Numbered from the stretch's first letter, positions 4,818 through 20,721 are shown. The stretch is DNA of 64,000 nt from a virus (IMGVR_UViG_3300042569_003232:64001-128000); one strand, 5' to 3'. Notes: generated by a model not told the origin, from the sequence alone. Translations and numbers: made by a program.

Positions 4818-4910
4818 TGGTATTTCCGGCTGGATTCGAACCAGCAAATTCGCGCTCTAGAAAAAATGTTTTACCAATGAAAGTTGTACTTTCAATTAAA
4901 CTACAGAAAT
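4818..4910 (-). pseudogene. tRNA-like element, unpaired anticodon stem and hairpin inserted in D-loop
   Basis: Acceptor ATTTCTG/CGGAAAT-ACCA and T-arm GCTGG-TTCGAAT-CCAGC intact. Confidence 0.6.
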
Positions 4911-4915
4911 AAAAT

Positions 4916-4991
4916 TGGTGGTTCTGGCAGGATTTGAACCTGCTACCCCTTCCTTATCAAGGAAACGCTCTACCGAGTGAGCTACAGAACC
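4916..4991 (-). tRNA. trnI: tRNA-Ile(GAT)
   Basis: TTCC-TTGATAA-GGAA, CCA. Confidence 0.9.
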
Positions 4992-4993
4992 AT

Positions 4994-5326
4994 TTAAAAT
5001 GAGAATTTTATTTGACCATTATTGCGAACTTTTATTTTATATTTCTTGTTTTTTTTCATCAATGATAATTTTTGTTTTGTTTCTTCGGTATGTCCGTGAA
5101 GACTCGCACCGAATTTTTTACCTTTTTGTCTTTCTGACATTTTTCTAAATCTTTCATCATTATGTTTATTTAAACCTTTTGACCAACTAGATGTACCTTT
5201 TTTAGCATGAGCGTTTGGAGATTTTTTTCTTTTTATGCGAGACGGATTTTCAACACAATATGGTGAGTGTGCTGCTAATCCTCCTTTATTTTTAATTTTT
5301 CGTTGACAATATTCACATGTATACAT
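4994..5326 (-). CDS. Zn-finger/NUMOD3 protein, probable truncated homing endonuclease
   Basis: CEYC...H..YC and HTEETKQKLS NUMOD3 motif; no nuclease domain visible. Confidence 0.6.
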   Translation of the reverse strand: MYTCEYCQRKIKNKGGLAAHSPYCVENPSRIKRKKSPNAHAKKGTSSWSKGLNKHNDERFRKMSERQKGKKFGASLHGHTEETKQKLSLMKKNKKYKIKVRNNGQIKFSF

Positions 5327-5368
5327 GTGAATATTTATTCAACAATCAAGAATATTTCGATAAACCAA

Positions 5369-5457
5369 TGGCGGGAAGCTGAGGAATCGAACCCCAACCT
5401 TTTTTAGAGATCCCTCGGTTTTCAAGACCGCGACAAGCCCAGCTTGCATAACCTCCC
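5369..5457 (-). tRNA. trnS: tRNA-Ser(TGA)
   Basis: CGGT-CTTGAAA-ACCG, long variable arm, G73-CCA. Confidence 0.85.
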
Positions 5458-5463
5458 GTAGCT

Positions 5464-5491
5464 ACTATACATTGTCTCTTGAGACTTGCAA
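5464..5491 (-). promoter_or_regulatory. Sigma70-type promoter TTGCAA-N16-TATAGT
   Basis: Motif match just upstream of tRNA-Ser. Confidence 0.6.
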
Positions 5492-5537
5492 CAGAAATTT
5501 TATATTTTAGTAGCCTTTTAGTAATTTTATCCGTCCA

Positions 5538-5840
5538 TTATCCTATAAAATGAGAACCTAATTTTCGTCCACCATTCTCATCATCTAATATCTTTACTCC
5601 GGGAACATAAGTCAATGCTTCTGCAAGGGCATAGGAACCGTCTAAGTTCTTTTGTTGAGTAGTAACTTGAACTACGCAACCACCGGGAACTTCCATTGCT
5701 TTTGTGCTTTTCATCCATCCCTCATTTTCAGAAGATGCTTTACAAAGTAATTTAAAAGTATCTCCGTTTCCTACTACTTTAATGTCAGGAACGTTGATTT
5801 TTGCTCCTGATATGTCTGAATTGTGTAATGTTTTTGTCAT
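5538..5840 (-). CDS. Conserved hypothetical phage protein
   Basis: LLCKASSENEGWMKSTKAME..GGCVVQVTTQQ motif recurrent in phages. Confidence 0.8.
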   Translation of the reverse strand: MTKTLHNSDISGAKINVPDIKVVGNGDTFKLLCKASSENEGWMKSTKAMEVPGGCVVQVTTQQKNLDGSYALAEALTYVPGVKILDDENGGRKLGSHFIG

Positions 5841-5842
5841 AC

Positions 5843-5916
5843 GGGGGTCTTATCGGGAATCGAACCCGATTGGATAGTTCCACAAACTATGGCATCACCA
5901 AAATGCTTTAAAACCC
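5843..5916 (-). tRNA. trnH: tRNA-His(GTG), CCA not encoded
   Basis: ATAGT-TTGTGGA-ACTAT; TCGGG-TTCGATT-CCCGA. Confidence 0.85.
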
Positions 5917-5920
5917 ATAT

Positions 5921-6205
5921 TTACTTAAACTTATTTTTCCATTTAGTCCAGAAATTTATTTTCTTTAATGGTTTATTTTCTTTTTTAACAGTATATTCAT
6001 ATTCCTTTCCTAATCTAGTTAATAAAATACGCAAAAATAAACCGTGGTATTGTTTGGGAATTCCTGAAAAATCAAAAGTTCCCGAAACTGCATAACCGCA
6101 ATAATTTACTACATTTTCAATTTTTACAACTGGAGGAGTATTCACTGTTAGTGAATCCATTTCAGAAAGTTTAATGCTTACAATTTTTGGTTCTTCCTTA
6201 TTCAT
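5921..6205 (-). CDS. Hypothetical protein
   Basis: 94-aa ORF in co-directional block. Confidence 0.65.
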   Translation of the reverse strand: MNKEEPKIVSIKLSEMDSLTVNTPPVVKIENVVNYCGYAVSGTFDFSGIPKQYHGLFLRILLTRLGKEYEYTVKKENKPLKKINFWTKWKNKFK

Positions 6206-6211
6206 ATAAGG

Positions 6212-6415
6212 TTAATATGTTGCGTTTAAACTGTCTATTCTTTTTTCCAATTCTTCAATTCTTAATCTTAGTTTTTCGATTTTATCTTGAAGAGGAGAAT
6301 TTATCCAAATTAAAAATTCTTCATCTTTTTTTCGTCTACTACATTCTACACAATTTGAATTGTGATGCAAAGTGAATTTTCCACAAATATTACATATTTC
6401 ATTCGTTGCTCTCAT
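6212..6415 (-). CDS. Small zinc-ribbon/coiled-coil protein
   Basis: CNIC...CVEC then heptad-like segment. Confidence 0.65.
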   Translation of the reverse strand: MRATNEICNICGKFTLHHNSNCVECSRRKKDEEFLIWINSPLQDKIEKLRLRIEELEKRIDSLNATY

Positions 6416-6623
6416 ATTTCAAATCTTTACTTTTTTCTATACTATATGTTTTATTAGAATGAACCAAGATTTGATTTGTGAGAAAATTCATTATTTTTCC
6501 GCCATCTTTCAAAACTATTGTCCATACATCGTTTTCATGCATTCCATTTTCTTTTACATAAATTGCATATCCATCTCCTAATGGAGAGATTACTGGTATC
6601 GGATTCTTAAATTCCGTTATCAT
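6399..6623 (-). CDS. Hypothetical phage protein (start corrected to 6623)
   Basis: MITEFKNPIPVISPLGDGYAIYV...NDVW; upstream part overlaps tRNA-Gln. Confidence 0.7.
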   Translation of the reverse strand: MITEFKNPIPVISPLGDGYAIYVKENGMHENDVWTIVLKDGGKIMNFLTNQILVHSNKTYSIEKSKDLKYESNE

Positions 6624-6626
6624 TTT

Positions 6627-6703: not shown

Positions 6704-6758
6704 TTCAGATTCCAATTTTGTTTCTATACCAAGAATATTTTGTTGCGGTTTGGAATCT
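6704..6758 (-). ncRNA. Hairpin array unit C
   Basis: AGATTCCAA-ACCGCAA-...-TTGGAATCT-GAA. Confidence 0.65.
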
Positions 6759-6760
6759 TT

Positions 6761-6885
6761 TTCAGATTAATATTTTTTTACGGTTCGGGGTGTTGCCATT
6801 ACACTACAACATTACTAGAATGTTGGAAGGAATCGAACCTTCTTTACCAATTGGGATTGTAAGTTTTTATTGCAGTTATTAATCT
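6761..6885 (-). ncRNA. Hairpin array unit B carrying a circularly permuted tRNA module (Y RNA/YrlA-like)
   Basis: AGATTAATA-ACTGCAA ... T-arm, closed acceptor hairpin, D-arm ... TATTAATCT-GAA. Confidence 0.7.
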
Positions 6886-6887
6886 TA

Positions 6888-6949
6888 TTCAGAAGTGTTT
6901 TATCGTCAAAGTAAAAGTTTGATTTTTTTATGTTTGCTGTAACACTTCT
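6888..6949 (-). ncRNA. Hairpin array unit A
   Basis: AGAAGTGTT-ACAGCAA-...-AACACTTCT-GAA. Confidence 0.65.
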
Positions 6950-6960
6950 TGTATATCCTT

Positions 6961-6988
6961 ACTTTACCACTTTTCTCAGAGAAGTCAA
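6961..6988 (-). promoter_or_regulatory. Sigma70-type promoter TTGACT-N16-TAAAGT driving the hairpin array
   Basis: Motif match 11 nt upstream of unit A. Confidence 0.7.
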
Positions 6989-7448: not shown

Positions 7449-7695
7449 CGTTTTTATCTTGCTTAACCTCAAATTTGCTTATATATTCGTCTAAAATTTC
7501 TATAAAATTCGTATGACCTTCAATATCAGCTTCAAGTTCTTTTACACGTTGTTCTGCTGCTCCTTCTTTCATCCATTCACTATTCTCTATGGATAAAGTG
7601 TAATCGGCACGAAGTTCTATCAATTTATTACGGATGATATAGTTTATTATTACTTCCGCAGTTTTACGATGTTTTTCTACTAATTCAAAAGTCAT
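7429..7695 (-). CDS. Hypothetical protein flanked by direct repeats
   Basis: 88-aa ORF. Confidence 0.7.
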   Translation of the reverse strand: MTFELVEKHRKTAEVIINYIIRNKLIELRADYTLSIENSEWMKEGAAEQRVKELEADIEGHTNFIEILDEYISKFEVKQDKNDIDYQL

Positions 7696-7711
7696 AATTG
7701 ATAATCAATAT
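7680..7711. repeat. 32-bp direct repeat, copy 2
   Basis: Identical to 7417-7448. Confidence 0.9.
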
Positions 7712-8102
7712 TATTTTTATTTTTATTCTTTCGATATTCCTCGTTTGGAATTTTTCCTAGTGAATAAAACCACGTTTTATACTTTCCCCAAACAAGGAAA
7801 AGTGAAGTTACTGGTCCTTCTACAATTTCTTCGATTTTATGACAGTAATCCCTGCCAGCAATACCGATTGAGCCGGGGGATTTAAGATTAAGTCCGCGAT
7901 CTGTTTTCTCTATATACCTTCCCTTTAGAATGATTCCGCAGAAATTCCATGGATGGGTGTGTAAATAAGGGTCTTTATCGGCCTTATATATCGTGTGGAT
8001 ATATAGACTCGCTACATTTTGTATTTCAAAAATCGCAAATCTACGAAAATACAATTCACCATCTCTGGAACGAATTTCTTTAACAGTTTTGAAAAATTTC
8101 AT
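7692..8102 (-). CDS. Cupin-like phage protein
   Basis: YFRRF...LHTHPWNF...G-Y-E...H-K-I pattern. Confidence 0.6.
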   Translation of the reverse strand: MKFFKTVKEIRSRDGELYFRRFAIFEIQNVASLYIHTIYKADKDPYLHTHPWNFCGIILKGRYIEKTDRGLNLKSPGSIGIAGRDYCHKIEEIVEGPVTSLFLVWGKYKTWFYSLGKIPNEEYRKNKNKNNIDYQL

Positions 8103-8114
8103 AAAATTATTTTT

Positions 8115-8303
8115 TTAACTACACAAACAACTTCCATAATTCTCGCAACAAATGCGATTATATACTCCACAACTTTCACACCAAACTGCATCTCCTCCAC
8201 AATAAATGCAATATTTAGTAGAAGGGTATAACAATTTTTTACGACGCCTTTTATCCCATCGCTTTTTAATTCTTTCCTTTCTAGCTTCTTGTCTTCGGGT
8301 CAT
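8115..8303 (-). CDS. Small basic Cys-rich protein (start likely 8303)
   Basis: CIYC...CESC...CC...CLC; track start lies inside the tRNA-like element. Confidence 0.55.
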   Translation of the reverse strand: MTRRQEARKERIKKRWDKRRRKKLLYPSTKYCIYCGGDAVWCESCGVYNRICCENYGSCLCS

Positions 8304-8308
8304 AAAAA

Positions 8309-8369
8309 TGGTGGACAATATCGGAATCGAACCGATGAATCAGAGACTCTACCACTGAGCTAATTGCCC
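8309..8369 (-). ncRNA. 61-nt tRNA-like RNA lacking the anticodon arm
   Basis: GGGCAAT/ATTGTCC-ACCA, D-arm GCTC-AGTGGTA-GAGT, 9-nt linker, T-arm ATCGG-TTCGATT-CCGAT. Confidence 0.75.
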
Positions 8370-8375
8370 TTAAAA

Positions 8376-8690
8376 TTATTTCTTATTCTTACTAAGTTTA
8401 ACCAATCGACAACCCTTAAAGTTATCCATATATTTTTTCAACTCTTCGATTTCATCTCGCTTAATCCACAATGCATGTTTTCTAGGACCAAAAATTAAAC
8501 TTCCAAACATAAACGATTGGAAATTTACATATCCAGTATAAAATTTACTTTTATATGTAGTTTTCAATACATATTCGCCTTCCCGGAGGGTTAATGCAAA
8601 ATTGATATTTTCTCGGACAGTTGTTTTAAGTCCATTGCGATGATTTTTACATTTTTCGTAATTAGCTACTTGTCTTTGAATTATTTTCAT
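8376..8690 (-). CDS. Hypothetical protein
   Basis: 104-aa ORF. Confidence 0.65.
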   Translation of the reverse strand: MKIIQRQVANYEKCKNHRNGLKTTVRENINFALTLREGEYVLKTTYKSKFYTGYVNFQSFMFGSLIFGPRKHALWIKRDEIEELKKYMDNFKGCRLVKLSKNKK

Positions 8691-9131: not shown

Positions 9132-9575
9132 TGGTGGAGGTGAGGGGAGTCGAACCCCTGTGTTTAACAATCTAATTTAACAATTCTACACGCTTAGATA
9201 TTTCGCAATTTCTGAGACTTTGGGTTTGCTGGCATATCAACCGATTTTTTTGAGTCATTACCCGCTATTACAAAAAGCTAATAGCTACCTGCATTTTTTG
9301 TTCTATGTATATTGAAATGCTTTTATACAACCTATTTTTAGACCTCAATAATTTTAATAGTATCCATTATTGTTTAACTTAGGCAACCATTTCCATTTCT
9401 TCGACACCGACGAATTCGTCTGCATTGTTGAAAATGTATTCAGCTTGCGCTAGTAGGGCATTGACTTCTGCGTCTTCTGCTTTTATTTGTTTTGATCAGC
9501 TTTTAAAGTAGCCAACTGATCAACTACTACGTGCTATGTTAATTTCAACCATTAAGTCGAAACCAAAACACCCCC
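9132..9575 (-). ncRNA. ssrA: tmRNA; tag reading frame 9379-9480
   Basis: 5' GGGGGTG...TTTCGAC; 3' T-arm plus CACCTCC-ACCA; G3.U70; tag AEDAEVNALLAQAEYIFNNADEFVGVEEMEMVA*. Confidence 0.92.
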
Positions 9576-11998: not shown

Positions 11999-12448
11999 TT
12001 AGTCCCAATCTATTTTTGTGGTTGCATTATATTCATCCACACTATCCTGCAAATCTGCAATGTTGTTATTTATTTTGTTGATTAAATATCTCTGATCCGA
12101 CTTTGTGATTGTGTTGACCCATGGTATTTGGCGAGGAACTGTTGTGCTATAATCCATTGCTACTCCTTCATTTATGATTATTTTTTCATGAAATGAAATT
12201 GCAGATTTTGCTTCTGCTAGTTCTACTAATGTTGCTTGAATACCTGCTGAAGCTGTTGCTATTTTTTGCTTGATAAGAATCAGAAGATTTTTTGATTGTT
12301 CCCACTCTCCATAAAGTAAGGAAGGATCTATTGAACTATCGTCACCTTCTCTACGGCAGTTAGAACTCTTAAACAATTCTTCTATTTTTGCTAATTCTCC
12401 GGCAATCCGGTTTTTAATTTTCAATGCTTTGCTAATACTAATTTTCAT
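11999..12448 (-). CDS. DIP1984/DUF6847-like coiled-coil protein
   Basis: MKISISKALKIKNRI... and C-terminal LQDSVDEYNATTKID resemble MKLAEAL.../LD..IQ..NWTTEL family pattern. Confidence 0.6.
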   Translation of the reverse strand: MKISISKALKIKNRIAGELAKIEELFKSSNCRREGDDSSIDPSLLYGEWEQSKNLLILIKQKIATASAGIQATLVELAEAKSAISFHEKIIINEGVAMDYSTTVPRQIPWVNTITKSDQRYLINKINNNIADLQDSVDEYNATTKIDWD

Positions 12449-12465
12449 AATTTTGTTCCTCTATT

Positions 12466-12493
12466 ACTATAGTTTGTTTATGGCATTTATCAA
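12466..12493 (-). promoter_or_regulatory. Sigma70-type promoter TTGATA-N16-TATAGT
   Basis: Motif match upstream of DIP1984-like gene. Confidence 0.65.
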
Positions 12494-12505
12494 CCACTTT
12501 TGTCT

Positions 12506-12637
12506 TTAAATTTTATCTGCTTGATTTATTAACTGTGACCCTAATAAATCCCTCATAAAATCATCTTCGGAACTCATACGTTCACAGTGGCGTTCCATAG
12601 ATTTTATCGCAGAAATGAGTGCTGGGGACTCCAGCAT
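12506..12637 (-). CDS. Possible 43-aa small protein
   Basis: MLESPALISAIKSMERHCERMSSEDDFMRDLLGSQLINQADKI; ATG shares the A of tRNA-Gly CCA. Confidence 0.3.
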   Translation of the reverse strand: MLESPALISAIKSMERHCERMSSEDDFMRDLLGSQLINQADKI

Positions 12638-12712: not shown

Positions 12713-12732
12713 ATATTTTACTTTCGTTTAAT

Positions 12733-12760: not shown

Positions 12761-12798
12761 CATTTTTCGGATTTTAATTTTCAGTTGTTTAAACATTT

Positions 12799-13305: not shown

Positions 13306-13328
13306 TTTATAAATCTATTGTATTTTGT

Positions 13329-13766
13329 TTAACTATTATATTTCCAGATAATTGCATCAGGGAAATATCTTTCGATTATTTCACTTACAATTTTCCAATC
13401 ACCTCCACCAGTTCCGCAACCAAAAAGATATGGAAAATTATAAATACCAGACAGTTCATTATTCGCAAAAAGCTGAAAGCTATTTTCCATTGCAGCATAA
13501 TCTGTATGCAATCCTGTTTTTCCATAAGAATCTTGACTGAATACATTTACAACTTTGCAATCTTCTAATTCCACTACTTGATAAGTTCCAAGAGGTGAAA
13601 TTCCATTTTTTCTACATTCATCTCCGAATGAGATATAACTATTATAGACTTTTGGAAAAGTGTTTCTTATTTGAAGTGCAATTCCGCTTCCCATTACAAA
13701 TTTACAATTTGTTTGATGAAACAAATAACCTTTTTGTTCTAATAGATTTCCTTCTTTTATAATCAT
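13329..13766 (-). CDS. Macro-domain (ADP-ribose-processing) protein
   Basis: IKEGNLL...HQTNC..VMGSGIALQI...FPYLFGCGTGGGDW. Confidence 0.85.
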   Translation of the reverse strand: MIIKEGNLLEQKGYLFHQTNCKFVMGSGIALQIRNTFPKVYNSYISFGDECRKNGISPLGTYQVVELEDCKVVNVFSQDSYGKTGLHTDYAAMENSFQLFANNELSGIYNFPYLFGCGTGGGDWKIVSEIIERYFPDAIIWKYNS

Positions 13767-13769
13767 AAA

Positions 13770-14063
13770 TTAATTAAATATTACCATTTTTGGATTATCT
13801 CTTTTAGAAATATCATTGAACGATGATACTGAAGTGGTAATCACTATGTTTCTTTTATTATCGCCCCAACTCAAAGTATGTTCATCCACTTCATTTATAG
13901 AGAGATTTTCAATTAATGAAATATTATATTCAAATATCATTGTTTTAATCTGGATCAAATCAAAAGATTTAGTACACCACATTACGTTTTCCTCCATTCC
14001 ATATGAAATATATTCATGGTACAATACATCTAGTATTCGATTAATATGTTTTCCAATATTCAT
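13770..14063 (-). CDS. Hypothetical protein (start corrected to 14063)
   Basis: Upstream part of the track ORF is tRNA-Phe. Confidence 0.55.
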   Translation of the reverse strand: MNIGKHINRILDVLYHEYISYGMEENVMWCTKSFDLIQIKTMIFEYNISLIENLSINEVDEHTLSWGDNKRNIVITTSVSSFNDISKRDNPKMVIFN

Positions 14064-14069
14064 AATTTT

Positions 14070-14145
14070 TGGTGGGTTGACTCGGAATCGAACCGAGATA
14101 GTCTGTTCTTCAGACAGATGCATGAACCATCGCTGCCATCAACCC
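14070..14145 (-). tRNA. trnF: tRNA-Phe(GAA)
   Basis: TCTGT-CTGAAGA-ACAGA, CCA. Confidence 0.9.
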
Positions 14146-14496
14146 GTTTTTATATAGTGAATATATTTTAAATTTTCTTTCTATTAACTTGTATGTTTCA
14201 AGTTTTTTAGTTAATGGACGAGAATTAATTTCTCCATACATTCCTTCATATTCTTCAACTTCTCCAGTTTCAACTTCGTCAAAAATTTGAAATTTCAAAT
14301 TATAAATGTCATTCTCTACTGTTATAGTTTCGTTAAATTCTTTTTTATAAACTCCTTCCCATATAAACCTTATAAGATCATCATTTATTCGTAATTCTTT
14401 TGAGAAGTACAATCTATCCTCTACTTGAATTACAATATCTTCTTTACGAAGAATGTCTATAAAATCTTTCCAAGAAATTTGAGTAAAATTATTCAT
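14110..14496 (-). CDS. Hypothetical protein; 3' end overlaps tRNA-Phe
   Basis: 128-aa ORF. Confidence 0.65.
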   Translation of the reverse strand: MNNFTQISWKDFIDILRKEDIVIQVEDRLYFSKELRINDDLIRFIWEGVYKKEFNETITVENDIYNLKFQIFDEVETGEVEEYEGMYGEINSRPLTKKLETYKLIERKFKIYSLYKNGLMAAMVHASV

Positions 14497-14498
14497 AT

Positions 14499-15017
14499 TT
14501 ATTTTTCGCTTTCTAGTATTTTCTCAATTTCTTTAATTTTTTCCAATGTAATTTCTGCAATAAATTTTCGATATGATACGTCAAGGTCTTGACTTCCTCT
14601 TTGTAAGTTTTTCGGAAATCCTGATCTGGCTCTATACATCATAGCACAAAAATAACATAAGTCAAGTTCTAATTCTGAAGAATTTTTCCAAGAAACACTT
14701 TCTTCCAAATCATCTATATTTTCTCTTGCGTATTTTATAATTTTTTCCCAAACGTCTGCATAACAAAACACTATAAATCCGGGTTTTTCAGTTGAAAACT
14801 TTTTATTTTTAAGACGATTATCAATCAATGTTGATTCTATATTATGTAATTCTCCATAATCGTCTAGTTCACCTTTTGCAAATGATATTCCATTAAACCA
14901 CCAAGAATCTAAAACAAATTCTATATCATGTGAAGAATTTGTTTTTAATGCAATTGCTTTGCCTTCTCCTAAAATAGGAAGATTAGTGATTATACATGTT
15001 TCATGCCAATAACCCAT
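14499..15017 (-). CDS. Hypothetical phage protein
   Basis: MGYWHETC..TNLPI...G..DDYG motif. Confidence 0.7.
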   Translation of the reverse strand: MGYWHETCIITNLPILGEGKAIALKTNSSHDIEFVLDSWWFNGISFAKGELDDYGELHNIESTLIDNRLKNKKFSTEKPGFIVFCYADVWEKIIKYARENIDDLEESVSWKNSSELELDLCYFCAMMYRARSGFPKNLQRGSQDLDVSYRKFIAEITLEKIKEIEKILESEK

Positions 15018-15038
15018 ATATTTATTTTGTTAAAATTG

Positions 15039-15168
15039 TCGTCTAGAAAGGATTCGAACCTTTATTTTCCGGTATATCTTTTAAAAATTAGCAATTTAAA
15101 TTTTTAAGATAATATAATGTATAATATTTTTATTATGATGGATATTTTACCAATTAAATTACTAGCCG
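15039..15168 (-). pseudogene. tRNA-like element with long AT-rich insertion in place of the anticodon loop
   Basis: CGGCTAG/CTAGACG acceptor, D-arm ATTT-AATTGGTA-AAAT, T-arm AAAGG-TTCGAAT-CCTTT. Confidence 0.55.
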
Positions 15169-15180
15169 AAAAGTTGAAAA

Positions 15181-15261
15181 TGGAGGGTCAGGTAGGATTT
15201 GAACCTACATCTCACAACTACAATATAAATGTGTGCGAATTACCAATTATTCTACCGACCC
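15181..15261 (-). pseudogene. tRNA-like element with enlarged anticodon loop
   Basis: GGGTCGG/CTGACCC-TCCA, intact D and T arms, 13-15 nt loop. Confidence 0.65.
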
Positions 15262-15277
15262 AATGTGGAAATTATTT

Positions 15278-15577
15278 TTATTCTAAAGACAATTCCATTG
15301 TATACAATTCTATTTCCCAAGATGGAATTATTCTAATAGATAGATCATATAAACTTAATACTAGATATTGTGAAATTGTGCTTATATCTTTTACTTTTAT
15401 GTCTGTTTCTAACGAACTTAGCAATTTTAATCCTGCGATAATAATTGCTTTATTTGGTTTTCGCTGAAATTCTTTTTTCCATTCTACTAACCATCCTTCA
15501 ATTACACTAATTATTATTGATGAAGATGGTAATATCGAACTTTCTAAGTTCTCGAATGTTGTTTTATAAACTTTCAT
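15278..15577 (-). CDS. Hypothetical protein
   Basis: 99-aa ORF. Confidence 0.6.
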   Translation of the reverse strand: MKVYKTTFENLESSILPSSSIIISVIEGWLVEWKKEFQRKPNKAIIIAGLKLLSSLETDIKVKDISTISQYLVLSLYDLSIRIIPSWEIELYTMELSLE

Positions 15578-15587
15578 ATTTTGTTTA

Positions 15588-16148
15588 TTATCTTTGAATA
15601 TTTAATTTAATAAGACGTTTCTTTACTGATACATCACTACATCCTACTATAGTAGCTATTTTAGTTCTTGGCAACCTTTTTGTTACGAACAAATCATGCA
15701 AGTCATATTTTTCCCAATCAACTTTACAACGTTTTTTAGCGGCACAATTTTTGGAACACGTTATTTGATGACAACTCTTTTCTCCGTTACAAATAGGGCA
15801 ATTATCGGTCAATTCTTTTCTTTTATTTGATTTATAATCTGCATAATTTTCATTAAATCTTGGACAATCTTGTGTAATTTCTCGATTATTATTATGTACC
15901 TCTCTATGGCAATTGGCGCATAGTAGCACACATTTTCTCATTTCTATAATTATTTTCTCCCATGATACCGGATTTGCTCTAATTGCACCAAAAGAAAATT
16001 CTTTTTCTTTTGGATCAAGATGATGTAATTCTAATGCTTCTACACATTTATCATAACCACATGTTCCACATCTAGAATTAAATGCATCTACTATTCTTTG
16101 CTTTGTATTTCTTCTCCAATTTTTAACATGTTCTGAATTTTCGCTCAT
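15588..16148 (-). mobile_element. HNH homing endonuclease in tRNA cluster
   Basis: CGTCGY...LELHHLDP...CVLLCANCHRE, extra Zn finger and C-terminal HTH. Confidence 0.8.
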
Positions 16149-16201
16149 ACAAAGTTACTTACTCTGTATCGAACCTCCGTGTTAAACCTTAACACGAAAT
16201 T

Positions 16202-16277
16202 TGGCACATAGGGGTGGGATCGAACCAACCTTCACTTGTTTAACAGACAAGCCGCTCAGCCGTGTGCGTTCCTATGT
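16202..16277 (-). tRNA. trnN: tRNA-Asn(GTT)
   Basis: CTTGT-CTGTTAA-ACAAG, G73-CCA. Confidence 0.9.
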
Positions 16278-16288
16278 ATAAAAATTAT

Positions 16289-16356
16289 GTTATTAGACAG
16301 GATTTGAACCTGTATACTCTCCCAATGAGAGGAATTACCAATTATTCTACTAATAA
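16289..16356 (-). pseudogene. tRNA-like element with 5-nt anticodon loop, paralog of 15181-15261
   Basis: Identical D-arm TAGAATAATTGGTAATTC; CTCTC-ATTGG-GAGAG; no CCA. Confidence 0.6.
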
Positions 16357-16363
16357 ACTAAAA

Positions 16364-16438
16364 TGGTGCCTCCGATGGGATTCGAACCCATAGCCTTCAG
16401 ATTAAAAGTCTGTTATTCTACCGTTGAATTACAGAGGC
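16364..16438 (-). tRNA. trnK: tRNA-Lys(TTT)
   Basis: CAGA-CTTTTAA-TCTG, CCA. Confidence 0.9.
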
Positions 16439-16453
16439 ATATTTTTATTTAAA

Positions 16454-16529
16454 TGGCATCGCTAGGGGGAATCGAACCCCTCAACTCAAGATTGAAAGTC
16501 TTGCGTGATAACCGTTTCACTATAGCGAC
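16454..16529 (-). tRNA. trnE: tRNA-Glu(TTC)
   Basis: CAAGA-CTTTCAA-TCTTG, CCA. Confidence 0.9.
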
Positions 16530-16546
16530 CTGTCTTTTCTTCTTCT

Positions 16547-16574
16547 ACTTTACCACAAAGTTTTCTGTTGTCAA
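16547..16574 (-). promoter_or_regulatory. Sigma70-type promoter TTGACA-N16-TAAAGT
   Basis: Motif match upstream of tRNA-Glu. Confidence 0.7.
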
Positions 16575-16605
16575 CATGTTTTAGGAGTTTTCTACTTTTT
16601 TATAT

Positions 16606-16764
16606 TCAACGTTTATACCAACTTGAAAATATATCAGCTAAACAATCTCCTATTACATATAATATTATATATGTTAATATAACCCAAAACAATGTTGCTG
16701 CTCCTGCTCCAATCCAAAAATAACTATTAGATAAAAATTCAGGAATACTAAATGTCAATTTCAT
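16606..16764 (-). CDS. 52-aa membrane protein not in ORF track
   Basis: MKLTFSIPEFLSNSYFWIGAGAATLFWVILTYIILYVIGDCLADIFSSWYKR; start overlaps upstream stop. Confidence 0.6.
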   Translation of the reverse strand: MKLTFSIPEFLSNSYFWIGAGAATLFWVILTYIILYVIGDCLADIFSSWYKR

Positions 16765-18005
16765 TATACCAATCCTCCAGTTTTTTGTGACAAATCAAAG
16801 TTATTTTCAATAAACGTCTTTACTTCTTCTGCAATACCGGGATCACTACTGTTAAACACTACATTTGGACCATGATTATCCAGAAATACTGCTTTTAGCC
16901 TACCAAAAGATTTCAATCCATTTGAAGTATTTTTCCCACATTCGTGACTTCCACATTCATATTCTTTTTGAGAAATTGTGGGAACAAGTGAGTTTTCTTT
17001 TTTTGGACAATGAAAATGAACAATACTGTCAAAATCCGGATGATCAGAAAATACAATTCTTTGACTTTGTCCACCCACGCTTGGTTTACTGCCATATGCA
17101 ATTACTCTATCAGGACCGTCAGTTTCAACTAGAACTAATCCAACATTTTTAATATCTCCCAAATCAGTTTTACGACGAGAAGACAAAAATTTAGTTTCGC
17201 TTAGTTTTACTGCAAAATGTCCTGCGGTTACTCCTCGGAATTTTTTATATGCTCCTTTTTCCACACAATAATTTACAACTTCTCGCAATGATTCTGGAAC
17301 CAGAGGTGAACTCCATTCACAAGGATTTCCTGCAACAACCGTTGATCTTGTAAAAGTTAATGTACTTCTTAGTAGTGCAATTTTTACCAATTCTTCCAAA
17401 ACTTCTTTTCGATTATTAGTAACACAATAACGTGCTTCTTCTGGAACAATAATCATGTTTCGGCGATGCAATGTATCATTTGCCAGTACAAGATTAGCAC
17501 TTGCTTTTTTAAGCAAATTCAATCCGGCCAAATATTGTTCATCTTCTGTTGCTCCACAAGTTGTCTTGAATGCAACAAGAGTAATATCTTTTCGAGTTTT
17601 TCTAAAAAGATCAACTACTTTTTCCGTATTAGGAATTAGTTTTGCATTATATTCTTTTTTAGAATCCAATCTTCCGCTATATTTTGGATTAGTTTCTTTA
17701 TCCAAATTATCTGCATCTACAATCATTTCAAAATCGCAAACTGCTGGACTCCAAAAAACAATTTTTGTAGAAATGTCATTTACAATGTTTTCAGCAAGTT
17801 TAGCCAAATCTTTTGGACTTTGCAAATTATGATTTCCTCCTGCCATTGCAGTTAAAACCAATTCTGCATCCATTTCTGGTGCATGTTCTTGAACAAGACT
17901 CATTAGTGTTCGGGCAGTTGAGCCAAATGCAGGAGCATTCAAACCCAAATGGCAACTACTATGTGCTACTGTTCCGCCTCCAACAACATAAATTTTCTTT
18001 TTCAT
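16764..18005 (-). CDS. CoaB/Dfp-C-like domain fused to class II aldolase/adducin-like domain
   Basis: GGGT, AVCDF, LVAFK, NLVLAND (CoaB-like); GHFA, HFHC (aldolase-like). Confidence 0.65.
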   Translation of the reverse strand: MKKKIYVVGGGTVAHSSCHLGLNAPAFGSTARTLMSLVQEHAPEMDAELVLTAMAGGNHNLQSPKDLAKLAENIVNDISTKIVFWSPAVCDFEMIVDADNLDKETNPKYSGRLDSKKEYNAKLIPNTEKVVDLFRKTRKDITLVAFKTTCGATEDEQYLAGLNLLKKASANLVLANDTLHRRNMIIVPEEARYCVTNNRKEVLEELVKIALLRSTLTFTRSTVVAGNPCEWSSPLVPESLREVVNYCVEKGAYKKFRGVTAGHFAVKLSETKFLSSRRKTDLGDIKNVGLVLVETDGPDRVIAYGSKPSVGGQSQRIVFSDHPDFDSIVHFHCPKKENSLVPTISQKEYECGSHECGKNTSNGLKSFGRLKAVFLDNHGPNVVFNSSDPGIAEEVKTFIENNFDLSQKTGGLV

Positions 18006-18038
18006 AATTATTATTTTTGGTTATCCTTTATAGGTTTT

Positions 18039-18395
18039 TCACTCTACACTTGTATCCGAGTTTGTCAATTCATTTTCGAGATTTCTGTACTTTGTGAATG
18101 CCTGTATAATAGATATTGCTATTTCATCTTTGATTTTATCATTAGATGATAAATCATCGAAATCAATTATACTGGAATGATATGGTGCATGAGTTTTAGC
18201 CCATTCAACCCAATAATCATGAATTTCTTTTGCTGATACATCTTTGTCTTCTGTTATCTTTTTTGCAACTCCAATACAAAGATTTTTATGATTTTCCGTT
18301 GCTTCTTCCCAACTTGAATATGGTTCCTCCCCTATACTAACCTTAAATGCCGAAATAGAATAATGTATCAATTTTCCTAAAAGTTCTAATTTCAT
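18039..18395 (-). CDS. RyR-domain-like phage protein
   Basis: IHDYW...H..IIDFDDLS..DKIKD pattern. Confidence 0.5.
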   Translation of the reverse strand: MKLELLGKLIHYSISAFKVSIGEEPYSSWEEATENHKNLCIGVAKKITEDKDVSAKEIHDYWVEWAKTHAPYHSSIIDFDDLSSNDKIKDEIAISIIQAFTKYRNLENELTNSDTSVE

Positions 18396-18703
18396 ATCTT
18401 TTGTTCGTTCTTTAATTTATCTTTCCATGAAATATTTTCGATTTTTCTTTTTTCTGCCACATATTCAAGTATCCCATTATATTGTTTTTCTTTATAAAGT
18501 TCATATATTTTTGGAATATCATCCATTGGAAATTTTTCATCGTCTGCTGCTGGATGAAAATAATCACTTACGTTAATGGTTAAACTAATTGAATCATTTT
18601 CATCTGTTATCATTAGCACACATTCATCCAAAAGATATGCTATCATGTCTTCTTCGCGGGGAACATTTTCTCCTCCGTTCATTTCAATATAATATCTTCG
18701 CAT
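18392..18703 (-). CDS. Hypothetical protein
   Basis: 103-aa ORF. Confidence 0.65.
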   Translation of the reverse strand: MRRYYIEMNGGENVPREEDMIAYLLDECVLMITDENDSISLTINVSDYFHPAADDEKFPMDDIPKIYELYKEKQYNGILEYVAEKRKIENISWKDKLKNEQKI

Positions 18704-18706
18704 AAC

Positions 18707-19492
18707 TTATAAAACTACCTTTTTGAAATCGTTGTTTTTTACCAAATCATATACTCCCCAACGATCAAGAATCAAGCGTTCCAAAATTTCAATATGATAT
18801 GCATCTTCAAAATTCCAAAGCATTTTAGAAACTATTGGACATTCTTGGATAAGAATATCCCGGATAACTTCTGCCACTTCCCGGCATTCTTTTTGCGCTG
18901 TTTTATACAACCTTTTATTCAGTGTGGTAATCCAATCACGAAGTTTACCATTAAAAATAATTTTTGTAGTTGTTGCTTCTGGCAAGACGAATCTTGCTGT
19001 TTCTCGGGCAACGTTATTGTTTATTAGTTCCTGATATAGTTCAAAACTATTTTTCATATGTTCCTTGACTTTTTCACTTGCCTTTCCGGTTTTATCGGTG
19101 AAAAAGTCATTATCAGAAACAAACAAAATTGGATCTACTAAATTTGTTGAACTTTGACGATTATTAGAACATTGCTCTCTCAGTTCAATTTCTTCATATT
19201 CATTAACAATTTTATATCGTTGACTCAATTCTTGAGGTTGCAAGCTCCAATGCCTCAACAGTTCTCGTCCAATGGCACGGGACGTTTCAATCTCAATTCC
19301 AAGATTAACCATTGCAAAAACACTCCAATGTCCTTCTCTTAGACAATGCCGAAGAAGTTTATGAGGTTCATTAAACAATTCATTTACATCTCTGGAACTG
19401 CTGAGTCTTGCAATTCCTACGGTAATTTCATCAATACTTTTGTCTGTATATTCTGCAACTCCTGCGGTTTTGGTGATTAAACGTGCTTTCAT
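18707..19492 (-). CDS. thyX: FAD-dependent thymidylate synthase
   Basis: GHWSVF, SRAIGRELLRH, QELSQRY, RETARFVLP, TAQKECR. Confidence 0.92.
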   Translation of the reverse strand: MKARLITKTAGVAEYTDKSIDEITVGIARLSSSRDVNELFNEPHKLLRHCLREGHWSVFAMVNLGIEIETSRAIGRELLRHWSLQPQELSQRYKIVNEYEEIELREQCSNNRQSSTNLVDPILFVSDNDFFTDKTGKASEKVKEHMKNSFELYQELINNNVARETARFVLPEATTTKIIFNGKLRDWITTLNKRLYKTAQKECREVAEVIRDILIQECPIVSKMLWNFEDAYHIEILERLILDRWGVYDLVKNNDFKKVVL

Positions 19493-19494
19493 TT

Positions 19495-19692
19495 TTAATT
19501 TGTTAAAATATATTCAATTTTTCCTTTGATAAAGTGGGGAGGATTTTTACCAAGATGTTCAAGACAGTCACAAGAAGAAACTGGTTCATCTGCATACACT
19601 CCTTCACAATACTTGCAAATGTATGCATCTCGCTGCACAAAACACTTAGAAGGTTTTTCTTTATTTTCAGGCATTGTTGATTCATCCGCCAT
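19495..19692 (-). CDS. Small Cys-rich protein
   Basis: CKYCEGVYADEPVSSCDC. Confidence 0.6.
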   Translation of the reverse strand: MADESTMPENKEKPSKCFVQRDAYICKYCEGVYADEPVSSCDCLEHLGKNPPHFIKGKIEYILTN

Positions 19693-19709
19693 AGGCTATT
19701 ATAAGTTTT

Positions 19710-19913
19710 TTAAAGGAGACATCCAGTTCCTTCTGTCATACTCCATCCGCAAACAGTGCAATCTGCACCTGTTACCAACCAGAGATCCCACGGTTCCATT
19801 TTTCCATTACAAGAAGGACATGGTGGACAAACATCTTCCGGCTTTAAATTTTTAAAACCGTCTTGATATTTCTGGTCTAAAAATCTCGCATGTTCATCTT
19901 TATTAATTAACAT
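19710..19913 (-). CDS. Small zinc-ribbon protein (start corrected to 19913)
   Basis: CPSC...CTVC. Confidence 0.6.
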   Translation of the reverse strand: MLINKDEHARFLDQKYQDGFKNLKPEDVCPPCPSCNGKMEPWDLWLVTGADCTVCGWSMTEGTGCLL

Positions 19914-19916
19914 AAA

Positions 19917-19993
19917 TGGTCTAGACGGCGGGATTCGAACCCGCAACCACATGATCCCAAATCATGTACTCTACCAAGTTGAGCTACGTCTAG
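19917..19993 (-). tRNA. trnP: tRNA-Pro(TGG)
   Basis: CATGA-TTTGGGA-TCATG, CCA. Confidence 0.9.
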
Positions 19994-20005
19994 TAGTATC
20001 TTTTT

Positions 20006-20033
20006 ACTATACACTGTAAAGTTCTTTTGTCAA
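20006..20033 (-). promoter_or_regulatory. Sigma70-type promoter TTGACA-N16-TATAGT
   Basis: Motif match. Confidence 0.7.
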
Positions 20034-20049
20034 AAGGAAAATGTGTATT

Positions 20050-20123
20050 TGGTGCTTCTAAAAGGAATCGAACCTTTTCATGTTGCTTATGAAACAACTG
20101 TTCTACCACTGAACTATAGAAGC
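20050..20123 (-). tRNA. tRNA(CAT): Met or lysidine-dependent Ile2
   Basis: GTTGT-TTCATAA-GCAAC, A73-CCA. Confidence 0.85.
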
Positions 20124-20126
20124 AAA

Positions 20127-20197
20127 TGGTCTAGACGATGGGAATTAACCCCACAACCTGTATTCAAACTACCGCTCTCCCATTAAGCTACGCCTAG
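20127..20197 (-). pseudogene. Degenerate paralog of tRNA-Pro
   Basis: Same acceptor 3' strand CGTCTAG-ACCA; 3-bp anticodon stem; T-loop GTTAATT. Confidence 0.6.
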
Positions 20198-20205
20198 ATA
20201 TACTT

Positions 20206-20651
20206 TCATCTTATCATATACCACTCAAAAGGTCCATTTCTAAACGTCGTAACATCAAATTTCGCAAATTTCAATATTTTATAATAACTTTTTAACTTTT
20301 TAACATCAAAAGAACCTACTAAAATATATCCGTATTTTTTCGTCCACGTTTTTAACACAACTAGAAGTTGTTTTGCTACACCTATTTTAATATGGTCTGC
20401 TAAACATGGATATTTCCTATTTTGCTGTTCCGGATTAAAACAAAGACGTTCACCAGAGGTTAACCCCAGCCAATAATTATTACCCTCATCCTTGGCTAAA
20501 ATAGAGTATATTCATCTAATTTAATTTCTTCTACCAGTTCCATATCAAATTCATCCGTATTTTGGATATAGTCTCCTATAAAAGATTCATTTATTAAATT
20601 TCCAGAACAATATTCTATTAGCATGTTTTCATATATCTGAGGTAATTCCAT
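20206..20651 (-). pseudogene. Probable single gene split by a frameshift near 20496-20511
   Basis: MELPQ...DEYTLF* overlaps a start-less ~101-codon frame IYSILAKDEGNNYWLG...WYMIR*. Confidence 0.45.
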
Positions 20652-20656
20652 GCTAT

Positions 20657-20664
20657 TATTTATA
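20657..20664 (-). promoter_or_regulatory. T4-type late promoter TATAAATA
   Basis: Exact match 5 nt from ATG 20651. Confidence 0.6.
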
Positions 20665-20670
20665 TAATAA

Positions 20671-20721
20671 TGGTGGAGGTTGTGGGTTACGATCCCACCT
20701 ATTCTGTGCCCCCCCCCCTCC
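20671..20721 (-). repeat. Duplicated 3' half of tRNA-Ala (minihelix-like, ends ACCA)
   Basis: AGGTGGGATCGTAACCCACAACCTCC shared with tRNA-Ala. Confidence 0.65.

What the first reader, a model, noticed from the sequence alone, without database searches (positions are those of the whole stretch)
4818..20721. A family of tRNA-like genes damaged mainly in the anticodon arm
Besides 21 readable tRNAs, at least seven elements keep a paired acceptor stem and usually a canonical T-arm and D-arm, but have a deleted (8309), unpaired (4818), expanded (15039, 15181), shrunken (16289, 20127) or missing (20671) anticodon arm. Four of the first six still end in an encoded CCA. Random decay should hit all arms, so the bias suggests selection on the tRNA elbow and acceptor end. 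Candidate roles (inference): decoys for host tRNA-targeting defences (anticodon nucleases such as PrrC, RloC, PARIS AriB, VapC), sinks for synthetases or RelA, or processing punctuation in long transcripts. Homing-endonuclease scarring is an alternative.
Basis: inference. Interest (0 to 1): 0.72.

Follow-up and report, generated by a model that had tools for sequence, protein, structure and literature searches.

The report
Phage tRNA look-alikes lacking working anticodons
An uncultured lake phage carries, among about 25 ordinary tRNA genes, six tRNA-shaped genes that cannot read codons because the anticodon arm is deleted, shrunken or swollen; similar shapes are common between genes of many other phages, so they are probably kept, perhaps as cutting signals for tRNA-processing enzymes, but no RNA data show this yet.

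Summary
Six of the seven elements are real (4818, 8309, 15039-15168, 15181, 16289, 20127). Five pass Rfam's tRNA threshold. All keep paired acceptor, D and T stems and none has a normal anticodon arm. The seventh (20671) is not a gene. It is a strain-specific 79-nt insert that repeats the last 26 nt of tRNA-Ala and holds a G10 run. The claimed bias towards the anticodon arm is partly an effect of how the elements were found: 12637 has a damaged T loop, 4106 a rewired D arm, and tRNA finders miss both. Selection on the rest of the molecule has some support. Element 4818 has an ortholog in a more distant phage with a compensatory T-stem change and a scrambled anticodon region. Scans of IMG/VR, cut off by the tool's output limit, found 32 distinct anticodon-arm-less and 47 short-armed tRNA shapes with intact, covarying acceptor stems. 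The arm-less ones mostly stand alone between genes on the same strand. The best reading (about 0.4) is punctuation for RNase P/Z, like plant mitochondrial t-elements. Young pseudogenes (about 0.3) and acceptor-end decoys remain open. Decoys for anticodon nucleases are unlikely for 8309 and 16289, because the target loop is absent.

The parts
4818..4910 (-). Element 4818: tRNA-shaped RNA, 93 nt, 5 nt after tRNA-Ile and just before a TTGACA-N16-TAAAGT promoter. D-loop hairpin insert at 4878-4894. Unpaired anticodon region at 4847-4867.
   Evidence: Rfam tRNA 35.9 bits. Fold. Ortholog L130:5813-5899 with a compensatory T-stem change. Promoter at 4800-4773.
8309..8369 (-). Element 8309: 61-nt tRNA shape without an anticodon arm (9-nt linker at 8337-8345). 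It has G3:U70, A73 and an ACCA end. It lies 6 nt after the stop of the 104-aa ORF and 5 nt before the ATG of a 62-aa Cys-rich ORF (8115-8303).
   Evidence: Rfam tRNA 44.3 bits. Sequence read. Identical in L018.
7678..8684 (-). 1007-bp accessory cassette that carries element 8309 and three small ORFs. It is absent from the phage population in three of four lake metagenomes.
   Evidence: Joint 7677 to 8685 in contigs of runs X13, X15 and X24, not in X8.
15039..15168 (-). Element 15039: tRNA frame (acceptor 6/7, D arm 15144-15159, T arm 15047-15063) with an 80-nt AT-rich insert in the anticodon position. Long hairpin at 15075-15111. Ends ACAA, 21 nt before the ATG of the 172-aa ORF.
   Evidence: Sequence read. 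No Rfam hit. The hairpin keeps pairing through C-to-T and G-deletion changes in L003 and L008.
15181..15261 (-). Element 15181: tRNA shape with an expanded or bulged anticodon arm (15213-15235) that contains UAU. It starts 16 nt after the stop of the 99-aa ORF.
   Evidence: Rfam 49.4 bits. ARAGORN calls it Ile(tat). Variants change only the bulge or loop and C5 to U, a C:G to U:G change.
16289..16356 (-). Element 16289: 68-nt tRNA shape. The anticodon stem (5 bp) is capped by a 5-nt loop (16317-16331). No CCA. It lies between tRNA-Lys and tRNA-Asn, with 7-nt and 11-nt spacers.
   Evidence: Rfam 43.5 bits. The cloverleaf is the minimum-energy fold. Strain variants differ only in the pentaloop and the variable loop.
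20127..20197 (-). Element 20127: 71-nt tRNA shape with a 3-bp anticodon stem and a non-canonical T arm (20138-20154, 6 bp + 5-nt loop). Its acceptor stem nearly matches that of tRNA-Pro. It lies 3 nt before tRNA-Met.
   Evidence: Rfam 40.6 bits. Fold. 54/71 identity to tRNA-Pro 19917-19993. 100% identical in six variant contigs.
20675..20753 (-). 'Element 20671': a 79-nt insert. Bases 20675-20700 repeat the last 26 nt of tRNA-Ala (its own copy is 20754-20779). The other 53 nt are unique and include a G10 run (20709-20718). It is a duplication scar or an assembly artefact, not a gene.
   Evidence: The insert is skipped in contigs of three runs, with 26 nt that fit on either side of the joint. 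Alignment to L003 and L007. The unique part matches nothing else that I hold.
15588..16148 (-). HNH homing endonuclease gene next to tRNA-Asn. Strains without it carry a different tRNA-Asn allele.
   Evidence: PHROG HNH endonuclease, E 2.7e-29. Alignment. Joint 15588 to 16278 in run X24.

Best explanation
The seven items are not one family. Element 20671 is a duplication scar.

The other six are non-decoding, tRNA-shaped RNAs. They are made as parts of the long minus-strand transcripts that also carry the phage's tRNAs and small ORFs. I propose that they are kept because the host's tRNA-maturation enzymes can cut them out: RNase P at the 5' side, and RNase Z or RNase E plus exonucleases and the CCA-adding enzyme at the 3' side. 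These enzymes read only the acceptor stem, the T arm and the D/T elbow. Cutting would separate neighbouring tRNAs and set the ends of adjacent mRNAs, as t-elements do in plant mitochondria. Because none of these enzymes reads the anticodon arm, that arm is free to be deleted, capped by a short loop, or filled with an insert.

What is shown: the shapes, their positions next to ORF starts and stops or tRNAs, conservation of 4818 in a relative, and a wide phage-borne class of the same design.

What is inferred: transcription, cleavage and any benefit.
For: Shapes.

Positions at gene junctions:
- 8309 lies 6 nt after one ORF and 5 nt before the next ATG.
- 15181 and 15039 fill the gap between the 99-aa and 172-aa ORFs. 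15039 ends 21 nt before the ATG.
- 20127 sits between an ORF stop and tRNA-Met.
- 4818 closes a tRNA unit just before a promoter.

Conservation: the 4818 ortholog in L130 keeps the D arm, has a compensatory T-stem pair and a fast-changing anticodon region. Between strains, the only changes in acceptor, D or T stems keep the pair (U:G to C:G in 4818; C:G to U:G in 15181). All other changes fall in the aberrant arm, loops or the variable loop.

No orphan T arms: every hairpin in the 136-kb genome with a 5-bp stem and a TTCRANN loop lies in a tRNA, in one of these elements, in the tmRNA, or in one permuted module. The single exception is a probable chance hit inside an ORF.

Class level:
- Among IMG/VR hits where a D arm lies 8-18 nt from a T arm, 32 of 41 distinct elements have at least 6 of 7 acceptor pairs. 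The shifted control gives 0.7%.
- On alignment A1, 97.5% of cells pair and the covariation score is 0.82 against 0.19 for shuffles. The T-stem pairs were neither searched for nor selected, and they covary.
- 22 elements are co-oriented with the flanking genes and 2 are opposed. About 20 of 27 have an ORF start within 50 nt downstream, and only 6 have a tRNA nearby.
- One family sits right before terS.
- 47 further elements have 4-6-bp anticodon stems capped by 3-5-nt loops.
- In bacterial genomes only 9 of 47 such hits have a paired acceptor.

Precedent: plant t-elements that lack the anticodon arm act as RNase P/Z signals (PMC5499578, PMC1920247).
Against: - No RNA evidence of any kind.
- Four of the six elements (15039, 15181, 16289, 20127) are known only from strains at least 92% identical over the elements (mostly 96-100%). 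At that distance a young pseudogene would look the same. A homolog of the 172-aa gene at 53% identity has no such element upstream.
- 8309 lies in a cassette that three of four lake populations lack, so it is dispensable.
- Inside tRNA arrays the ordinary tRNAs already provide cutting sites, so 16289, 20127 and 4818 are not obviously needed.
- 20127 has a non-canonical T loop, which should weaken recognition through the elbow.
- The L130 ortholog of 4818 has a G.G mismatch at 2:71 and has lost the CCA.
- Intergenic spacers in phages are short anyway, so closeness to ORFs is weak evidence.
Confidence: 0.4

Rival explanations
1. Young pseudogenes. The elements are tRNA genes recently disabled by an indel in the anticodon arm, in a tRNA region that turns over quickly through cassette gain and loss and homing endonucleases. 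They look intact elsewhere only because too little time has passed, and because wrecks with a damaged T arm go unnoticed.
For: - 8309 is closest to the phage's CAT-anticodon tRNAs (50/61), and its linker may retain the 5' half of an anticodon arm.
- 20127 resembles tRNA-Pro, 130 nt away (54/71).
- Six cassette indels lie in 17 kb.
- HNH and LAGLIDADG genes are present.
- Four elements have no diverged ortholog.
- 12637 shows that elements with T-loop damage escape Rfam.
- 8309 is dispensable.
Against: - 4818 persists in a relative whose neighbouring protein is only 78% identical, with a compensatory T-stem change.
- No orphan T arms or half-tRNAs exist in 136 kb.
- The same designs recur in dozens of unrelated viral contigs with many different, fully paired acceptor stems and neat tri- to pentaloop caps. 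Decay does not produce that.
- 20127 is invariant in six contigs whose flanks differ by about 1%.
Confidence: 0.28
2. Trans-acting mimics. Once cut out and carrying CCA, the RNAs bind or soak up a protein that reads the acceptor end or the elbow. Candidates are a tRNA-directed defence toxin that acts on the acceptor end, a synthetase, EF-Tu, the CCA-adding enzyme, or the phage's own Ro60-like protein. Element 8309 has the full alanine identity set (G3:U70, A73, G1:C72, G2:C71) and could be charged by AlaRS without an anticodon.
For: - Four of the six end in an encoded CCA.
- G3:U70 with A73 in 8309.
- G.U is more frequent at pair 3:70 in the arm-less class: 6 of 33, against 0-3 at the other acceptor pairs.
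That would suggest a conflict over tRNA.
- That AlaRS charges minihelices is established knowledge.
Against: - No partner has been identified.
- 16289 and 15039 lack CCA.
- Most members of the wider class lack CCA and sit in 5' leaders of genes, which fits a cis role better.
- Decoys for anticodon nucleases are unlikely where the anticodon loop is absent.
Confidence: 0.15
3. Some are working decoders with unusual anticodon arms. 15181 would be a tRNA-Ile(UAU) with a bulged 6-bp stem. 4818 would be a tRNA-Glu(UUC), as ARAGORN draws it.
For: - ARAGORN calls both.
- In 15181 the seven bases around UAU form a textbook loop (U33, A37), and strain changes fall only in the bulge.
- AUA codons should be common at 31% GC.
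Against: - ARAGORN's anticodon stem for 4818 does not pair in the L130 ortholog, and a normal tRNA-Glu(UUC) exists at 16454-16529.
- The phage has a TilS-like gene and four CAT tRNAs, so AUA may already be covered.
- No 3-4-nt bulge or 12-nt loop is known to me in active elongator tRNAs (from my own knowledge).
- This reading cannot apply to 8309, 16289 or 15039.
Confidence: 0.1
4. Homing-endonuclease or recombination scars. Repeated cutting and repair at tRNA genes left footprints in the anticodon arms.
For: - The HNH gene beside tRNA-Asn goes with a swapped tRNA-Asn allele.
- 20671 is a 26-nt duplication of the tRNA-Ala end.
- LAGLIDADG and HNH genes lie beside the tmRNA.
Against: - None of the six elements borders an endonuclease gene or an indel joint. 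16289 lies just outside the swapped tract and is unchanged.
- Scars would not give neatly capped stems or recur across unrelated phages.
Confidence: 0.05

Closest known systems
t-elements of plant mitochondrial mRNAs (PMC1920247, PMC5499578)
   Same: They look like degenerate tRNAs with acceptor and T-arm mimics, and some lack the anticodon arm (nad6). They sit at mRNA 5' or 3' ends. Elements 8309 and 15039, and most members of the IMG/VR class, sit between co-oriented ORFs.
   Different: Cleavage of t-elements by RNase P/Z has been mapped. Here nothing has been mapped. The phage elements keep a fully canonical D arm and often an encoded CCA, and several lie inside tRNA arrays.
Phage T4 RNAC and RNAD, small stable RNAs of the tRNA region (PMC3014915)
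   Same: They are non-tRNA small RNAs encoded and transcribed within a phage tRNA cluster, with no known role.
   Different: I could not compare sequence or structure with the tools at hand. That the T4 RNAs have tRNA-like ends is my recollection, not tested here.
Pseudo-tRNAs reported by tRNA finders in phage tRNA clusters
   Same: Low-scoring tRNA-like hits among real tRNAs. 4818 and 15181 are called as tRNAs by ARAGORN.
   Different: 'Pseudo' implies decay. Here the stems outside the anticodon arm are intact, one element is conserved with compensation, and the design recurs widely.
tRNA-like domain of tmRNA, and alanine minihelices
   Same: No anticodon. G3:U70 with an ACCA end (8309). The phage's own tmRNA lies 760 nt away.
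   Different: 8309 has a full D arm and no mRNA-like part. Binding to SmpB and charging by AlaRS are untested.
mascRNA of MALAT1, and the tRNA-like units of murid herpesvirus 4
   Same: tRNA shapes used as signals for RNase P/Z to process a longer transcript, not for decoding (from my own knowledge).
   Different: These are eukaryotic or animal-virus systems. They keep a short anticodon stem-loop, and they have no homology to the phage elements.

Membership tests
tRNA (Rfam RF00005) | Covariance-model score at or above the gathering score of 29 bits | tested here: met
   Met by 4818 (35.9), 8309 (44.3), 15181 (49.4), 16289 (43.5) and 20127 (40.6). Not met by 15039 or 20671, which have no hit at E<=10.
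tRNA (functional decoder) | 5-bp anticodon stem closing a 7-nt loop with U33 and a purine at position 37 | tested here: not met
   None of the six has it: a 9-nt linker (8309), an unpaired 21 nt (4818), an 80-nt insert (15039), a 12-15-nt loop or bulged stem (15181), a 5-nt loop (16289), a 3-bp stem (20127)..
tRNA (L-shape core) | T loop of TTCRANN type, and a D loop with GG, to form the elbow | tested here: met
   Met by five elements. Not met by 20127, whose T arm is 6 bp + 5-nt loop. The tertiary fold itself is not testable here.
t-element-type processing signal | tRNA-like acceptor and T-arm mimic lacking the anticodon arm or D arm, placed at the end of an mRNA | tested here: met
   The shape is met by all six. 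Placement next to an ORF start or stop holds for 8309, 15039, 15181 and 20127. The wider class is co-oriented with flanking genes, 22 to 2.
t-element-type processing signal | Endonucleolytic cleavage at the element's borders by RNase P and RNase Z | not testable with these tools
   No RNA run holding the stretch was listed. Only DNA contigs could be laid on it.
Alanine-accepting minihelix or tmRNA-like acceptor | G3:U70 wobble pair with the A73 discriminator and a CCA end | tested here: met
   8309 only: G1:C72, G2:C71, G3:U70, A73, CCA. Charging cannot be tested here.
Decoy substrate of anticodon nucleases (PrrC, RloC, VapC, AriB type) | Presence of the anticodon stem-loop that the nuclease recognises and cuts | tested here: not met
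   Absent in 8309. Replaced by a pentaloop in 16289 and by an insert in 15039. For 15181, 20127 and 4818 the question stays open.
Decaying tRNA pseudogene | Mismatches accumulating in all stems; loss or scrambling in relatives | tested here: inconclusive
   Stems outside the anticodon arm are 95 of 96 pairs intact by my count. 4818 is retained in L130 with one compensatory pair and one new mismatch. The other elements have only near-identical copies.

The most novel reading that the evidence does not exclude
Phages widely encode an undescribed class of anticodon-less tRNA mimics that act in trans after being cut out. Members with G3:U70 and A73, such as 8309, would be charged with alanine. The RNAs would then occupy or divert proteins that read only the acceptor end and the elbow: acceptor-directed defence toxins, EF-Tu, synthetases, or aminoacyl-tRNA-dependent transferases. 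That would make them a counter-defence or host-takeover tool rather than mere punctuation.
Probability: 0.12. Interest if true: 0.85.

Novelty: new variant of a known kind. Interest (0 to 1): 0.6.

Why it matters
tRNA finders either skip these genes or label them as tRNAs with invented anticodons. ARAGORN called 17 of the 47 short-armed elements as tRNAs. Counts of phage tRNAs and arguments from codon usage therefore include molecules that cannot decode.

If the elements are cutting signals, phages use the plant-mitochondrial 't-element' trick to shape their operon transcripts. The family in front of terS would then mark the start of late mRNAs.

If instead they act in trans, they are a new layer in the conflict over tRNA between phages and bacterial defences.

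Either way the class is large, enriched in viral over bacterial sequence, and easy to test: 60-130-nt RNAs with predicted ends.

Tried and rejected
- RNA evidence: no RNA holder was listed for 12000-21900. Only DNA contigs could be laid.
- Close relatives in IMG/VR through the 413-aa, DSPc and helicase proteins: one 44%-identical fragment without tRNAs and one identical contig. Megablast against cultured phages gave only a tRNA-Ile match.
- The 413-aa protein turned out to be a widespread cellular-type enzyme, so most of its homologs were useless for synteny.
- Metagenome scan with the D arm shared by 15181 and 16289: no orthologs. It returned only chance coding hits and unrelated tRNAs with long variable arms.
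- IMG/VR scan for the D-loop hairpin design of 4818: nothing.
- blastn of the terS-upstream element against cultured phages: nothing.
- ARAGORN's reading of 4818 as tRNA-Glu: rejected, because its anticodon stem does not pair in L130.
- Treating 15181, 16289 and 15039 as one paralogous family: they share a D-loop type that is also common in other phage tRNAs, so I leave this open.
- Looking for a tRNA-related enzyme next to the elements: the neighbours have no informative family, apart from a cupin-like 136-aa protein and the HNH gene.
- Source of the 53-nt unique part of the 20671 insert: not found.
- Supplementary files of PMC10690425 are not held.
- Folding z-scores are unremarkable (-0.6 to -1.5), as is usual for tRNAs, and decide nothing.

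Full report
SETTING. The window is bases 64001-128000 of a 135,915-base IMG/VR contig that CheckV rates 52% complete. GC is 31%. The same stretch occurs in at least 24 lake-water metagenome runs. All tRNA genes lie on the minus strand, mixed with small ORFs. ARAGORN finds 21 in the window and 28 in the contig. Rfam adds a tmRNA at 9132-9575. HNH and LAGLIDADG endonuclease genes sit in the same region.

THE OBSERVATION. Five elements reach Rfam's tRNA gathering score: 8309, 15181, 20127 and 4818 and 16289. Reading the sequence and the folds gives the following.
- 8309-8369 has a perfect acceptor, D arm and T arm joined by a 9-nt linker, and ends ACCA.
- 16289-16356 is a cloverleaf whose anticodon stem is capped by five bases. 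It has no CCA.
- 15181-15261 has a stem closing a 12-15-nt loop, or 2 bp + bulge + 4 bp around a UAU loop.
- 20127-20197 has a 3-bp anticodon stem. Its T arm is also abnormal (6 bp + 5-nt loop).
- 4818-4910 has an unpaired 21-nt anticodon region and, in addition, a 17-nt hairpin inserted in the D loop just before the GG.
- 15039 is really 15039-15168: a tRNA frame with one acceptor mismatch and an 80-nt AT-rich insert. It ends ACAA and has no Rfam hit.

For comparison, 22 of the 26 other ARAGORN-called tRNAs of the genome do.

ELEMENT 20671 IS NOT A GENE. Contigs from three of four lake runs skip 20675-20753, with 26 bases that fit on either side of the joint. Variant contigs L003 and L007 show an ordinary tRNA-Ala ending in ACCA at that place. 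The window has a 79-nt insert that repeats the last 26 nt of tRNA-Ala after 53 unique bases, which include a G10 run. The supposed acceptor pairing uses that run. It is a duplication scar, or possibly an assembly artefact. The strain-matched run did not visibly cover it.

IS THE BIAS REAL? Only partly.
- The T arm and the CCA end are what a reader or a covariance model recognises, so wrecks with a damaged T arm stay unseen.
- The same region holds 12637-12712. It has a good acceptor stem and a proper UCC anticodon arm, but odd T and D loops. ARAGORN finds it only at a lowered threshold, and Rfam does not find it at all.
- 4103-4190 is a Tyr(GUA) gene with a rewired D arm.
- If these two are counted, together with the T-loop defect of 20127 and the D-loop insert of 4818, about six of ten lesions lie in the anticodon arm. 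This is my own tally, not a tool result.
- Against simple decay: a census of hairpins with a 5-bp stem and a TTCRANN loop found no orphan T arms anywhere in the 136 kb.

COMPARATIVE EVIDENCE FROM RELATIVES. I fetched variant contigs through cluster members of neighbouring proteins.
- The variant contigs are 92-100% identical over the elements, mostly 96-100%.
- The only changes in acceptor, D or T stems keep the pair: U:G to C:G in 4818, and C:G to U:G in 15181.
- All other changes lie in the aberrant arm, the loops or the variable loop.
- A real tRNA-Glu 120 nt from 16289 shows two compensatory double changes over the same distance.
- These numbers are too small to decide anything.

One element has a deeper ortholog. 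L130 comes from a phage whose neighbouring protein is 78% identical. There a 27-bit tRNA-like hit follows tRNA-Ile exactly as 4818 does. In the alignment:
- the D arm and the base of the D-loop hairpin are unchanged;
- the third T-stem pair has changed from G:C to A:U;
- the anticodon region has a 5-nt deletion and many substitutions, with no conserved pairing;
- pair 2:71 has become G.G and the CCA is lost;
- ARAGORN's Glu fold does not survive.

The other four elements have no diverged orthologs. A 53%-identical homolog of the 172-aa gene has no element upstream. A metagenome scan with the D arm shared by 15181 and 16289 found none. 8309 lies in a 1007-bp cassette that three of four populations lack.

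A WIDER CLASS. I scanned IMG/VR for one common D-loop motif lying 8-18 nt from a T-arm motif; in a normal tRNA the distance is about 27 nt.
- The scan hit the tool's output limit.
- 41 distinct hits have a D stem. Of these, 32 have at least 6 of 7 acceptor pairs, although the acceptor was not part of the pattern. A shifted control gives 0.7%.
- Aligned together with 8309 (A1), 97.5% of cells pair and the covariation score is 0.82, against 0.19 for shuffles and about 0.2 for slid partners. The three T-stem pairs that were neither searched for nor selected carry up to six pair types.
- The elements are co-oriented with the flanking genes, 22 to 2.
- About 20 of 27 have an ORF start within 50 nt downstream. 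Only 6 have a tRNA within 300 nt.
- One family, with linkers of 6 to 14 nt, follows a terminator-like hairpin and precedes terS or a nuclease gene.

A second scan, for distances of 19-24 nt, gave 67 distinct hits. Of these, 47 have intact acceptors, and their anticodon stems of 4-6 bp are capped by 3-5-nt loops, GAAA and UUCG among them. That is the design of 16289.

The first pattern run on one genome per bacterial species gave paired acceptors in only 9 of 47 hits.

All three scans were cut off by the output limit and used a single D-loop motif. The counts are therefore samples, not totals.

READING. Decay does not make neat loop caps, nor does it keep many different acceptor stems paired. 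So tRNA shapes with a truncated anticodon arm are a kept design in phages, and 8309 and 16289 fit it.

All known enzymes that cut tRNA precursors read the acceptor, the T arm and the elbow, not the anticodon arm. This is established knowledge. Plant mitochondrial t-elements are the direct precedent: some lack the anticodon arm, and they serve as RNase P/Z signals at mRNA ends (PMC5499578, PMC1920247).

The positions in the window agree with this:
- 8309 lies between a stop codon and an ATG;
- 15181 and 15039 lie between two ORFs;
- 20127 lies between an ORF and tRNA-Met;
- 4818 lies at the end of a unit, before a strong promoter.

I therefore put punctuation first, at about 0.4. Young pseudogenes stay at about 0.3, because four elements are known only from one species-level cluster and 8309 is dispensable.

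A trans-acting mimic gets about 0.15. It is most attractive for 8309, which has the complete alanine identity set and an ACCA end. G.U is also more frequent at pair 3:70 in the class than at the other acceptor pairs.

Decoys for anticodon nucleases do not fit elements that lack the loop these enzymes cut. 15181 may still be a working Ile(UAU) tRNA (about 0.1 for this kind of reading). Endonuclease scarring explains the tRNA-Asn swap next to the HNH gene and perhaps 20671, but not the six.

LITERATURE. Full-text searches for anticodon-less or tRNA-like elements in phages found no description of this class. The nearest items are:
- T4's RNAC and RNAD, whose role is unknown (PMC3014915);
- a survey that lists 'tRNA or tRNA-like' candidate structures in IMG/VR without this distinction (PMC10690425);
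- the t-element papers.

I treat it as a lead, not as support.

VERDICT. I class the finding as a new variant of a known kind. Interest is 0.6, and it rests on the breadth of the class rather than on this one genome.

Noticed in passing
window 4103-4190 (-): tRNA-Tyr(GUA)-like gene ending ACCA. It has no D arm in the usual place, and a strand after the anticodon arm can pair with the bases after the acceptor. Rfam scores it only as tRNA-Sec at 26.6 bits, and ARAGORN misses it. In L016 an acceptor G:U becomes G:C. It matches the 'transposed D-arm' tRNAs noted elsewhere in this scan.
   Followed up: partly
window 12637-12712 (-): tRNA-Gly(UCC)-like gene with a 7/7 acceptor and a proper anticodon arm, but a TGCAAGT T loop and a D loop without GG. 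ARAGORN finds it only at a lowered threshold and Rfam finds nothing at E<=10. It is probably the phage's only reader of GGA/GGG, and it shows how elements with T-loop damage escape detection.
   Followed up: partly
window 15588-16277 (-): An HNH homing endonuclease gene with the adjacent tRNA-Asn. Strains without the gene (L003, run X24) carry a clearly different tRNA-Asn allele. This looks like co-conversion of a tRNA gene by a free-standing endonuclease.
   Followed up: partly
window 6826-6842 (-), within 6704-6988: A canonical T arm that belongs to no tRNA frame. It is also present in L018. It may be a Y-RNA-like tRNA mimic, given the Ro60-like gene reported upstream in this genome.
   Followed up: no
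window 20205-20651 (-): The 148-aa ORF that is intact in L003 and L007 is broken in the window by a 1-nt deletion in a T run. The cause is either a pseudogene in this strain or an assembly error. It lies next to the G10-containing insert.
   Followed up: no
L072:406-463, L025:436-498, L081:2299-2360 and relatives (IMG/VR): A family of anticodon-arm-less tRNA shapes. Linkers are 6-14 nt, with T-stem covariation. They sit directly after a terminator-like hairpin and 17-35 nt before terS (three different PHROG families) or a nuclease gene.
   Followed up: partly
L353, L354, L357, L430, L445 and others (bacterial genomes, mostly Bacteroidota): A D arm and a T arm joined by a 10-14-nt linker that starts AACA, with no paired acceptor stem. 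This is a recurrent chromosomal tRNA-like module of another kind.
   Followed up: no
L246, L249, L276, L316, L317 (metagenome contigs): tRNA genes (GTT and TTG anticodons) with the same D arm as 15181 and 16289 and with variable regions of 16-19 nt, which is unusual for Asn and Gln tRNAs.
   Followed up: no
window 2457-3092 (-) and 13329-13766 (-): A PP-loop gene of the TilS type (PF01171, E 1e-33) beside the tRNA cluster, and a macro-domain gene within it.
   Followed up: no
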